A DNA stretch of 55,415 nt. Source: Girardia tigrina (taxonomy: Eukaryota). Within the stretch, counting starts at the first letter, position 1, and each line of letters begins with the position of its first letter. This document shows positions 3,001 through 6,000 of this stretch, piece by piece. The stretch lies in the NCBI GenBank assembly GCA_001938485.1, contig MQRK01224761.1, forward strand, positions 21,713-77,127. Reading direction: 5' to 3'. Position numbers: made by a program.

Positions 3001-6000
3001 AAATTTAAAGTTCACCAAAAGGAACCCCAACAAAGGGTAAAAAACCAAACCGTCTAGGAAAACGACAACGATGCAATCAATACTCACCAAAGTATTTGAT
3101 AACGAACATAAAATAATTTCTGATAATTTAATAAAAGTGTAATAAAAATTTACAAAATGTACTTTAATTATCTTTTTTTAGTCACACAATCAGTAAAATT
3201 ATCATTAATTCTTTCATTAATTTATAATTATAAGTCATTTATTCAGTTACGGAATTTTCATTCCAAAACAAATTTTGACAGTTTATAAAATTTATATTTC
3301 CTCTGTTTTGTATTATTATAAAATATAATAATTATATTTTTACACTGTTTTTCATAAATTTTATAAGCAAAATGAATACCGATTTTCTTTTCAGAAATGT
3401 TTTATTTATTTTTAAATATTGTTTTAAAGAATGAAAATCTATTTAAAATTTTAAAAATTTATAAATATGAAAGTAATAATTTAATGATTTGATATACTAG
3501 AACACGTAAATGGCCAGTAATTAAATTATATAAAATTATATTTTTCGGCCAATGAGACCTGTACCAATCAAAATTGAACTTTTAACGAGTATTTATTGAA
3601 GACAAAATTCCCTGAGACATCTCAAACAACATGATTAATATCAATGGGTAAATTTATATTTTCCTATTCTTGGATAATATTCCAATTTTGAATAATACTT
3701 TTCAATTTCAGATTCCTTGCTCTATCAATTGCAATATTATTTATCTTTCAATATACTCCAGAAGTACATGCCGAGAGAGTCAGCGATGGCGTACCAATTT
3801 TCGTAAAACGCTTTCAAAAACGACAAGACTACCCTCATTTTGGCTTCGAAAATGATATGGAAGACGTTAAAAAGCTATTAAGATATAATTATGATCCACT
3901 TCGACAATATGGTAAATAAATCCTAAAGTGTCATAGAGAAAGGAAATATATTTTACAAATAAAAAACTTGTTTTATTAAAGTGATTTTTTTCAAAATTTA
4001 ATTTATATTATTATTACCGTAATTTCCGCACTATAAAGCGCACCGTATTATAAACCGCACATTGCCTGCTTTTCCCAAAAAAAACATTATAAGTTATGAC
4101 ATTATATAAAAAAACATTATAAATATTATAAAACAAATAAAAACATTATAAAAACGTATAAGCCGCAACTCTTAAATTATGACTCATTTCAGGTTTTTAA
4201 GTGCGGCTTATAGTCCGGAATTTACGGTACTATTATAGTAATAATTATTATTATTATTTTAACTAATAATTCATATTTTCGTTGTTATCACATTAGAAAT
4301 CATTTCCCAAGGAAATTATATATTCATATGACAAATACTAAATTAAAATAATTTGCTGACAAATAAAATGATTTATGATAATTATATATTACGGAAATAA
4401 ATAATAGTTCAATAAACTATACCGAAAAAACGATTAATATACTTTTAGAAAATAAGAAAATAATCATATTTTAAAATATTAATATATTATTAAAATTTAT
4501 TTTTACATATATTTCTTATCAAGTTATAATATATATTAAGTTTAATATCAAATTATATTATGTATTAAATAATGATTTTATTCAATTTAAGATAAAATAT
4601 TAATAAAAAATAATTAAATATATTTAGAGTTTTAAATTTGTAAGTGATTTTGTAGTTCTACATTTATTACTTTAATAAATCACAATATATTATATAAACT
4701 CATATCAGTAATAATAAGTTTAAAATTAATATTAGATTAGTATATTTGATTTAAGTAGTAAAAATATATTTTTATCGAACTCTAAAAATTTTTAAATGAA
4801 ACCAGCCTTAGCCATGTCGTTCCTGAAGAAAAGGATGTGAAGTTAATGTTCTTCTGATTTCAGTAGAATATGTGTTCCAGAATATCTTCAAACATTCCTT
4901 AAAATAAAATGAATAAAGATTTTATTCCGCTTTTTAATTTTATTTAATGATATTTATATTTTATTTAGGACGATAATGAGATAATGAGTAAAAATTTTGG
5001 TTTATTGTAATATTTTATTTTCCAAATAACTCGGCAAATGAACAAATTATGAACAAATCTTTTAATGAACTGTCAAATTTCCAAATAAAAATTTTACAAT
5101 GCCAATATTAACTCACTTCCGATATATTTATTATTGAGTCTTGTGAACGCTAATTTGATAGTTTTGAAAAATAATTTTGTTATAGCTTTTTAAGAAATTG
5201 ATTATTATACAGTGCTCCGTAAAAGTATACGATCACCTTAATTTTTGCGAGTTTTCTAGAAAGCAATTGATCTACATAAAAAGTTTCCTTTCTACGTTGT
5301 TACGGTCGACAAGAAAGGATATTATTCATATTTTGACATATACCGTACATTATTCATTTATTTTTTTGATAGTTAAATAAAAATCTAATCTTTTATGTTT
5401 CTATACGAGAATAATATAAAATCTATTGAATACATTATTCTGGATTTATTTGTAAGATTTTTAATGAGATTTAGATTAAAAAAATAAATATATTGCACTA
5501 ATTACTAATTATTATAACTAAAATTATGATATGATAATGAGTATTTTATATTCTAATGACTTCAGATATGAATCACATCAAACTTATTCTATGTAATAAT
5601 TAGTTGTAAAAATTTAAAAATTGCTAATTAATGAATAATTATAATGAACTATACAGTCATACTTATCTTCGTAAAATATTTTATGATTTGACTTAGTACC
5701 AAAAGCGGATCCAGGGGGGGGGTAAAGGTACTAATTACCCCTCCCATGGATCCTCCCTTTCCTCTAACCTACCTGAGTTATACGCAATGAAACAAGAAGT
5801 TCAAGCTCGGTAGTACTAATTTGATAATTTTTCTGTCGGATATTTTAATGATTTAAAAACACTTTTTGCTGTGTGTTTATCTAGTACAGGGTTTTGCATT
5901 TAATTCCGTCTTTTTTGAATCAAAATTCTTGGTTTTTGCAATCAAATTACCCCCCCCCCTGGAATCTTAAATTTAAACATAGAATATCGTAGCGGAATTG

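What the first reader, a model, noticed from the sequence alone, without database searches (positions are those of the whole stretch)
3631..3919. Hidden two-exon neuropeptide prohormone missed by the ORF track
Seen: removing one canonical 64-nt intron yields a 74-aa ORF with a signal peptide, KR/KR/KK sites and terminal -YGK*. Established: this is the prohormone-convertase / carboxypeptidase E / PAM processing grammar. Predicted products are ERVSDGVPIFV, pyroGlu-DYPHFGFENDMEDV and LLRYNYDPLRQY-amide (or YNYDPLRQY-amide). I cannot assign it to a named family, so it may be a lineage-specific signalling peptide. This is the best candidate for new biology in the window.
Basis: partly seen in the sequence, partly recalled or inferred. 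Interest (0 to 1): 0.75.

Follow-up and report, generated by a model that had tools for sequence, protein, structure and literature searches.

The report
Small two-exon peptide hormone precursor
A short gene hidden among transposon debris encodes a small secreted precursor that looks built to release an amidated signalling peptide, and one unnamed relative elsewhere keeps exactly those peptide parts.

Summary
Exon 1 (3631-3647), a 64-nt GT..AG intron (3648-3711) and exon 2 (3712-3919) are as described. Exon 2 alone encodes 68 of the 74 codons: a hydrophobic signal core, KR, KR, KK and a terminal Tyr-Gly-Lys-stop.

It is more than chance. One unnamed 76-aa protein, P0001, matches exon 2 at 43 of 67 residues (E 1.9e-23) and ends in the same residues. 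Identity is 28 of 31 in the two C-terminal peptides and their flanking basic residues, against 15 of 36 upstream.

The second KR, the KK and the Gly-Lys end are conserved; the first KR is not. This is a real, conserved, lineage-restricted prohormone-type gene.

No Pfam, PDB or named protein matches it, and it fails the NPY/NPF tests. I found none of its peptide motifs in the main text of any searchable paper. Supplements were closed, so identity with an already named flatworm prohormone stays open.

Still untested: the splice junction and start codon, neuronal expression, and actual processing. Exons were not joined; searches used exon 2 only. I rate it a new member of a known kind, of moderate interest.

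The parts
3631..3647 (+). Proposed exon 1: start codon, four more codons and the first two bases (GG) of a Gly codon
   Evidence: Read, with donor TGG|GTAAAT. Among 56 in-phase ATG..GT combinations within about 3 kb upstream, this is the nearest. Too short to search, and not verified by any transcript.
3648..3711 (+). Proposed intron, 64 nt, GT..AG, 80% A+T
   Evidence: G+C is 0.20 against 0.34 in exon 2. An in-frame TGA at 3689-3691 closes the exon-2 frame upstream.
3712..3919 (+). Exon 2: last base of the split Gly codon, 68 codons and the TAA stop
   Evidence: Translation. Homolog P0001 matches at 43 of 67 residues, E 1.9e-23. tblastn of P0001 hits 3716-3916 and nowhere else in the window.
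3713..3772 (+). Hydrophobic core and c-region of the signal peptide (exon-2 residues 1-20), ending Val-His-Ala
   Evidence: The best 11-residue Kyte-Doolittle mean is 3.03, at residues 2-12. P0001 has an Ile-Glu-Ala end at the aligned place. Identity here is only 5 of 19. No signal-peptide predictor was available.
3773..3817 (+). N-terminal pro-region (residues 21-35), including the first KR at 3806-3811
   Evidence: Identity is 6 of 11 in residues 21-31. The first KR is Gln-Arg in P0001.
3818..3823 (+). Conserved KR cleavage site (residues 36-37)
   Evidence: Identical in P0001.
3824..3868 (+). Acidic 15-residue peptide starting with Gln (residues 38-52), net charge -5
   Evidence: 14 of 15 residues identical in P0001. 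Mass given.
3869..3874 (+). Conserved KK site (residues 53-54)
   Evidence: 2 of 2 identical.
3875..3910 (+). C-terminal 12-residue peptide ending in Tyr (residues 55-66), with an internal Arg at residue 57
   Evidence: Together with the Gly-Lys that follows, 12 of 14 residues are identical in P0001.
3911..3919 (+). Gly-Lys-stop: amidation donor Gly, a basic residue to be trimmed, and TAA. Also reads as a possible donor ATG|GTAAAT.
   Evidence: The same Gly-Lys end is found in P0001.
3958..3963 (+). AATAAA, a candidate polyadenylation signal 39 nt after the stop (others at 3915-3920 and 3975-3980)
   Evidence: This is a sequence match only.
3527..3568 (+). TATA-like heptamers (3527-3535) and two CCAAT pentamers (3549-3553, 3564-3568) upstream of the ATG
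   Evidence: These are sequence matches in very A+T-rich DNA and are not evidence of function.

Best explanation
This is a small gene, most likely of two exons and 74 codons, for a secreted prohormone of the regulated secretory pathway.

Inferred route:
1. A signal peptide of about 26 residues is removed after Val-His-Ala.
2. A prohormone convertase cuts at the conserved KR and KK.
3. A carboxypeptidase trims the basic residues, including the final Lys.
4. The exposed Gly is used to amidate the C-terminal Tyr.

This would give a 12-residue Tyr-amide, or a 9-residue form if the internal Arg is also cut. It would also give a very acidic 15-residue peptide whose N-terminal Gln can cyclise.

The amidated peptide is the likeliest signalling product. 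The acidic peptide is conserved even more tightly and may be a second one.

Shown here: the coding exon, its conservation and the conserved processing sites. Inferred: the splice junction, the start codon, every processing step and the cell type.
For: - Exon 2 reads as described.
- P0001, 76 aa with its own Met and hydrophobic core, matches at 43 of 67 residues (E 1.9e-23) and ends in the same residues.
- Identity by segment: signal 5 of 19, pro-region 6 of 11, KR block 4 of 6, acidic 15-mer 14 of 15, KK 2 of 2, and 12-mer plus Gly-Lys 12 of 14.
- Pooled, that is 28 of 31 in the C-terminal part against 15 of 36 upstream, Fisher p 3.3e-5.
- The hydrophobic core scores 3.03, and the rest of the protein is hydrophilic at -1.13.
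- Exon 2 is a G+C island.
- The grammar is met by 1 of 230 ORFs in the window and appears in 3 of 200 shuffles.
- No globular domain was found: Pfam gave 0 families at E up to 10.
- The language-model look-alikes are small animal prohormones of many families. They make up 7 of 10 listed rows for P0001 and 9 of 10 named rows for exon 2, with scores of 0.86-0.91.
- Processing enzymes of this pathway (PC2, CPE, PHM) are described for planarians in passages of a 2026 preprint. This bears on the gene only if the window is from such an animal.
Against: - There is only one relative. I do not know whether it comes from a transcript, or from another species rather than a paralog.
- No expression, junction or peptide data could be reached.
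- Exon 1 has no basic residue and shares nothing testable with the start of P0001.
- The first KR is not conserved.
- The look-alike evidence is weak by the tool's own measures. Recognition was 2005, below the 2300 mark. Shared features were 109-145, below 170. Only 1 of 10 best hits shares a family with the best hit.
- The chance-control criteria were chosen after the fact.
- A+T-rich DNA makes Lys-rich, Ile/Phe/Leu-rich ORFs easily.
- The sequence at the Gly-Lys-stop is also a donor-like ATG|GTAAAT, with the same hexamer as the proposed donor.
Confidence: 0.6

Rival explanations
1. The gene is real and secreted, but it is not a neuropeptide. It would be a small secretory product of gland, gut or epidermal cells, for example a defence or mucus-associated peptide, cut by furin-type enzymes.
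For: The sequence alone does not tell the cell type. Signal peptide, dibasic sites and small size are shared by many secreted peptides. No named neuropeptide family matches. One near look-alike, the C11orf94-type cluster, is not a hormone.
Against: The conserved Gly-Lys end fits amidation, which is typical of regulated-pathway peptides. The tightest conservation lies in short peptides bounded by basic pairs. There are no cysteines in exon 2. Most look-alikes are neuropeptide precursors.
Confidence: 0.22
2. Exon 2 is coding, but the gene model is different. Either another first exon is used, or the donor-like site at 3911/3912 is spliced to a downstream exon and gives a longer protein.
For: The junction and the start are unverified. 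56 in-phase ATG..GT combinations exist within about 3 kb upstream. The site at 3911/3912 carries the same GTAAAT hexamer as the proposed donor.
Against: P0001 is 76 aa, close to the predicted 74, with about as many residues before the hydrophobic core, and it stops after the same Gly-Lys. No longer relative was found: 0 of 17 candidates of 120-2000 aa, and none in the exhaustive search apart from a spurious repeat protein. The other nearby first-exon candidates have poorer donors or lie inside retroelement ORFs. The DNA after the stop has G+C of 0.17.
Confidence: 0.12
3. This is a chance ORF, a dead gene copy or a piece of a mobile element in a transposon-rich region.
For: The window is largely transposon debris. 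A+T-rich DNA yields such grammar now and then: 3 of 200 shuffles.
Against: The protein-level match has E 1.9e-23 with no gaps and a shared stop. Conservation is uneven in the way a functional precursor predicts. It occurs once in the window. It has no match to any transposon family and only one relative among 1.84 billion representatives, unlike a mobile element.
Confidence: 0.04

Closest known systems
Flatworm secreted-peptide and neuropeptide prohormone genes (spp, npp and others) of Collins et al. 2010, PMC2953531
   Same: A short precursor with a signal peptide, basic cleavage sites and an amidation signal. That study found 51 such genes by pattern search and mass spectrometry (section 8 read). 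A 2026 preprint counts 52 known genes (passages).
   Different: No named protein came back from any search. None of the short motifs tried occurs in the main text of that paper or of Ong et al. 2016. The sequences themselves are in supplements I could not open, so identity with one of them is neither shown nor excluded. The taxon of the window is not established.
Neuropeptide Y / neuropeptide F superfamily (Pfam PF00159)
   Same: A predicted C-terminal amidated Tyr. A neuropeptide F cluster is among the look-alikes at 0.88.
   Different: The end is Arg-Gln-Tyr, not the RXR-aromatic motif. There is no intron in the Arg codon before the aromatic residue, which Collins et al. give as the shared gene structure. 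There is no Pfam match. The amidated peptide is 12 residues at the far end of the precursor, behind two other segments.
Pigment-dispersing hormone/factor precursors (Pfam PF06324)
   Same: The best look-alike for both proteins, at 0.90 and 0.91. The cluster's proteins are of like size, at 79 aa.
   Different: No Pfam match at E up to 10. Shared features are 136, below the 170 typical of true family members. The tool itself rates the family as probably wrong.

Membership tests
Peptide prohormone of the regulated secretory pathway (class, not a homology family) | N-terminal signal peptide | tested here: inconclusive
   The hydrophobic core (3.03) and small residues at -3/-1 are present in exon 2 and at the aligned place in P0001. 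The start codon lies in an unverified exon 1 with no basic residue. No signal-peptide predictor was available.
Peptide prohormone of the regulated secretory pathway (class, not a homology family) | Basic cleavage sites that are kept in relatives and bound the conserved peptides | tested here: met
   2 of 3 dibasic sites are identical in P0001 (second KR and KK), and the first KR is not. The peptides between them are identical at 14 of 15 and 12 of 14 residues. This rests on one relative.
Peptide prohormone of the regulated secretory pathway (class, not a homology family) | Gly followed by basic residue(s) after the peptide, as an amidation signal | tested here: met
   Tyr-Gly-Lys-stop in the window and in P0001.
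Peptide prohormone of the regulated secretory pathway (class, not a homology family) | Expression in neurons or endocrine cells, and detection of the mature peptides | not testable with these tools
   No transcriptome, expression or peptidome data could be reached.
Neuropeptide Y / F superfamily | C-terminal RXR-Tyr/Phe-amide motif | tested here: not met
   The motif is as stated in Collins et al. section 8. Here the end is Leu-Arg-Gln-Tyr-Gly.
Neuropeptide Y / F superfamily | Intron inside the Arg codon that precedes the terminal aromatic residue | tested here: not met
   The structure is as described. The last 12 codons of exon 2 are contiguous.
Neuropeptide Y / F superfamily | Match to Pfam PF00159 (Hormone_3) | tested here: not met
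   0 families at E up to 10 for exon 2. P0001 gave only one unrelated weak match at E 0.16.
Pigment-dispersing hormone/factor | Match to Pfam PF06324 | tested here: not met
   Only a language-model resemblance of 0.90-0.91, with 136 shared features.
Named flatworm prohormones (spp, npp, npy, ppl, ppp, mpl, cpp and others) | Sequence identity or clear homology to a named member | not testable with these tools
   The only relative found is unnamed. The main texts hold none of the motifs tried. The published sequences are in closed supplements and in database records that no tool here fetches.

The most novel reading that the evidence does not exclude
This gene and P0001 define a previously unnamed, lineage-restricted peptide-signalling family. 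Its precursor would release two co-conserved products: a C-terminal Tyr-amide ending in Arg-Gln-Tyr, and an unusually acidic peptide with an N-terminal Gln. No ending of this kind is named in the searchable literature (0 papers for the three amide names and the -NH2 form).
Probability: 0.4. Interest if true: 0.5.

Novelty: new member of a known kind. Interest (0 to 1): 0.4.

Why it matters
Short, spliced prohormone genes are routinely missed by ORF-based and homology-based annotation. This one is invisible to an ORF track and sits alone among transposon remains.

If it is expressed and processed as predicted, it adds a signalling peptide with no counterpart in the named families. It also brings an unusually well conserved acidic companion peptide that could be a second signal. 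[quoted passage not shown]

It does not change any general principle. The processing grammar is the textbook one.

Tried and rejected
- **P0002 (2624 aa, E 6.3e-06).** Rejected. The score comes from adding up a weak 26%-identical match to a repeated unit, with no stretch passing on its own.
- **More relatives.** The profile of the two sequences brought only P0001 from 4 candidates. The search among longer proteins gave 0 of 17 candidates. The PDB profile search gave 6 chains, all at E 0.19 or worse and unrelated in name.
- **Pfam.** Nothing for exon 2, in either. In one search I sent 58 of the 75 stop-to-stop ORFs of at least 70 aa listed, leaving out 17 that overlapped others on the opposite strand or in another frame.
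- **Paralogs in the window.** None.
- **RNA genes.** No Rfam family and no tRNA in the window.
- **Repeats around the gene.** Only low-complexity A+T-rich pairs, apart from one inverted repeat downstream.
- **Literature.** 0 papers for ten peptide motifs. 0 papers for the amide names; the 60 papers all matched a fifth, unspecific term and are unrelated.
- **Other family resemblances.** I recalled from memory resemblances to sulfated-tyrosine peptides and to orcokinin/pedal-peptide types. These were considered as leads only. No tool returned either family, so they are dropped.
- **Not done.**
Exon 1, at 5 codons, is too short for any search.
  - Genome contigs holds only bacteria and archaea, so it was not used.
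  - I did not look up the origin of P0001.
  - Nothing in the window looked human.
  - The six N runs were left as they are.

Full report
**1. What is in the sequence**

- An ATG at 3631 is followed by four codons and GG.
- The donor is TGG|GTAAAT at 3647/3648.
- The next 64 bases are 80% A+T and end in TTTCAG at 3711.
- From 3713 an open frame runs to TAA at 3917-3919.

Exon 2 alone gives 68 residues. In order, they hold:
- a hydrophobic stretch
- Val-His-Ala followed by Glu-Arg
- KR at residues 32-33
- KR at residues 36-37
- an acidic 15-mer beginning with Gln
- KK at residues 53-54
- a 12-mer ending in Tyr
- Gly-Lys and the stop

The frame is closed upstream by TGA at 3689-3691 and holds no start codon. 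It therefore cannot appear in an ORF list and needs an upstream exon.

The 74-codon total follows by arithmetic: five codons, one split Gly codon and 68. Every search used exon 2 alone, and exon 1 is too short to search. One search read 3631-3648, which includes the first intron base; the sixth codon is Gly either way.

**2. Is it more than chance?**

*Composition.* Exon 2 has G+C of 0.34. The upstream DNA has 0.22, the intron 0.20 and the DNA after the stop 0.17.

*Grammar.* I scored three features together: a hydrophobic 11-mer early on, at least two later dibasic sites, and a Gly-Lys/Arg end.
- 1 of 230 stop-to-stop ORFs of at least 50 aa in the window passes, and it is this one.
- 3 of 200 block shuffles produced any such ORF.
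- The criteria were set after reading the finding, so this is only a modest control.

*Homology, which is decisive.*
- The word-indexed search of 5.8 billion proteins returned one protein, P0001. It is 76 aa, unnamed, from ENA, on a 708-base contig, with E 1.9e-23.
- BLASTP gives 43 of 67 identities, no gaps, and a shared last residue.
- The exhaustive HMMER pass over 1.84 billion representatives found P0001 again (5.9e-24) plus one 2624-aa protein. That second hit is an artefact of a weak match repeated many times.
- A profile of the two sequences found nothing further among 4 candidates.
- The search among longer proteins found nothing among 17 candidates.
- tblastn found no second copy in the window.

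**3. The pattern of conservation**

| Segment | Identical residues |
|---|---|
| Signal core and c-region | 5 of 19 |
| N-terminal pro-region | 6 of 11 |
| KR-x-x-KR block | 4 of 6 |
| Acidic 15-mer | 14 of 15 |
| KK | 2 of 2 |
| 12-mer plus Gly-Lys | 12 of 14 |

Pooled, that is 28 of 31 against 15 of 36, Fisher p 3.3e-5.

The second KR, the KK and the Gly-Lys end are identical in P0001. The first KR is Gln-Arg there. This is the pattern expected of a peptide precursor: a signal peptide kept only in character, a loosely kept spacer, and tightly kept peptides bounded by kept cleavage sites.

The conserved cut lies after residue 37.

**4. The gene model**

P0001 has its own Met, nine residues before the aligned hydrophobic core. 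The window's model has six. The two lengths, 76 and 74, agree.

Within about 3 kb upstream there are 56 in-phase ATG..GT combinations.
- The one at 3631 is the nearest.
- The next candidates, with ATGs at 3157 and 3071, have poorer donor contexts.
- Most of the rest lie inside retroelement-like ORFs.

Upstream lie TATA-like heptamers and two CCAAT pentamers. AATAAA lies 39 nt after the stop. In DNA this A+T-rich, such matches prove nothing.

Two things argue against it: the relative stops after the same Gly-Lys, and no longer relative exists in the databases searched.

I do not know whether P0001 derives from a transcript. I did not trace its origin.

**5. How it most likely works**

*Shown:* a conserved coding exon with a hydrophobic leader, conserved basic pairs and a conserved Gly-Lys end.

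*Inferred from established knowledge of the regulated secretory pathway:*
1. Signal peptidase cuts after Val-His-Ala.
2. A prohormone convertase cuts after KR (residues 36-37) and KK (53-54).
3. A carboxypeptidase of the E type removes the basic residues and the final Lys.
4. The amidating enzyme converts Tyr-Gly to Tyr-amide.
5. The N-terminal Gln of the acidic peptide may cyclise.
6. The Arg at residue 57 has Lys four places before it and is also kept in P0001, so a shorter 9-residue amide is possible.

Predicted [M+H]+ values are 1612.859 (12-mer amide), 1230.590 (9-mer amide) and 1825.701 or 1842.728 (acidic peptide with or without cyclised Gln).

Which peptide signals is not known. Amidation points to the C-terminal one, while the tighter conservation of the acidic one suggests it is more than a spacer.

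**6. Comparison with what is known**

*Sequence and structure libraries.*
- Pfam gives nothing for exon 2 at E up to 10. For P0001 it gives one unrelated match at E 0.16.
- A PDB profile search gives six unrelated chains at E 0.19 or worse.

*Protein-language-model atlas.* Its nearest clusters for both proteins are small animal prohormones of many unrelated families: pigment-dispersing hormone, diuretic hormone 31, neuropeptide F, prolactin-releasing peptide, spexin, neuropeptide S, galanin, gastrin/cholecystokinin and gonadoliberin.
- They fill 7 of 10 listed rows for P0001 and 9 of 10 named rows for exon 2.
- Scores are 0.86-0.91.

By the tool's own yardsticks this is weak:
- recognition of 2005, below the 2300 mark
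- 109-145 shared features, below 170
- only 1 of the 10 best hits sharing a family with the best hit

I read it as a resemblance of class, not of family.

*NPY/NPF.* This was tested against the features stated in Collins et al. 2010 (section 8 read) and fails on four counts:
- no RXR-aromatic end
- no intron in the Arg codon before the aromatic residue
- no Pfam match
- a 12-residue peptide at the far end of the precursor

**7. Is it already known?**

- Collins et al. report 51 prohormone genes in one planarian.
- A 2026 preprint speaks of 52 known genes (passages).
- Ten motifs from the two proteins occur in no main text of the searchable library.
- Five short motifs do not occur in the main text of Collins et al., and six do not occur in Ong et al. 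2016.
- The names RQYamide, LRQYamide and QYamide and the -NH2 form occur in no paper. All 60 papers matched only an unspecific fifth term.
- The protein databases give the only relative no name.

I therefore cannot exclude that this is, or is the ortholog of, an already named gene.

The taxon of the window was not determined. It is an A+T-rich genome (about 27% G+C over the non-N bases, from the base counts) with spliceosomal-type intron signals and animal-type transposons.

**8. Surroundings**

The gene stands alone among mobile-element remains:
- retroelement-like pol pieces upstream at 455-2190
- a short inverted-repeat element about 90 nt after the stop, at 4009-4235
- transposase and reverse-transcriptase pieces further on
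- a retrovirus-like pol stretch at 23926-26234

These are described only. The window has six N runs totalling 2836 bases, which were left as they are. Nothing looked human.

**9. Verdict**

| Claim | Probability |
|---|---|
| The coding exon and its conservation are real | about 0.95 |
| It is a secretory prohormone-type precursor | about 0.8 |
| It is a neuropeptide, processed as described | about 0.6 |
| The exact exon 1 and junction are right | about 0.65 |

It is a new, unnamed member of a very well known kind of gene. It is of moderate interest, mainly as an example of what ORF-based annotation misses and as a candidate lineage-specific signal.

Left unchecked: transcripts and splice reads, expression, peptidomes, supplements, and the metagenome and viral contig collections (closed).

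Noticed in passing
window 4009-4235: An inverted repeat with 35-nt arms (4009-4043 and 4201-4235), 83% complementary and 157 nt apart, about 90 nt after the candidate gene's stop. It looks like a small non-autonomous DNA transposon. The arm sequence occurs once in the window.
   Followed up: partly
window 455-2190 (+): Retroelement-like pol pieces: reverse transcriptase (RVT_1) matched in two overlapping ORFs whose protein segments are nearly the same, pointing to a partial tandem duplication, followed by RNase H. The stretch is split over four ORFs in three frames. 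No protease or integrase match was seen. Described only.
   Followed up: partly
window 23926-26234 (+): A retrovirus-like pol stretch with raised G+C (0.35-0.36). It has a weak RVT_1 match (E 0.0011), then DUF7047 and RNase H-type matches. It is broken into four ORFs: at least one change of frame and two in-frame stops. The last two ORFs match no Pfam family.
   Followed up: partly
window 19269-20292 (+): A Mos1/mariner-type transposase. HTH_48 matches at E 5.2e-19 in the N-free first 60 codons. The rest is interrupted by two N runs and lies in two overlapping ORFs. The two N-free later pieces gave no Pfam match. The N runs were not filled.
   Followed up: partly
window 8600-8992, 16904-17254, 20540-20788, 40229-40769, 41174-41545 (all +): Further mobile-element fragments: DDE_3 transposase pieces (8600-8992, and two adjacent ORFs at 40229-40769), an RVT_1 piece (16904-17254) beside an N run, a DDE_1 piece (20540-20788), and a DUF659 domain that I recall as hAT-associated (41174-41545). 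No ordinary host gene besides the candidate was recognised among the 58 ORFs scanned.
   Followed up: no
window 17611-17844, 19451-19659, 19903-19952, 28837-29699, 33521-34186, 50092-50905: Six runs of N, 2836 bases in all. Several long 'ORFs' in the ORF list are only these runs read as X.
   Followed up: no
whole window: No tRNA gene and no Rfam family at gathering score in 55 kb.
   Followed up: yes
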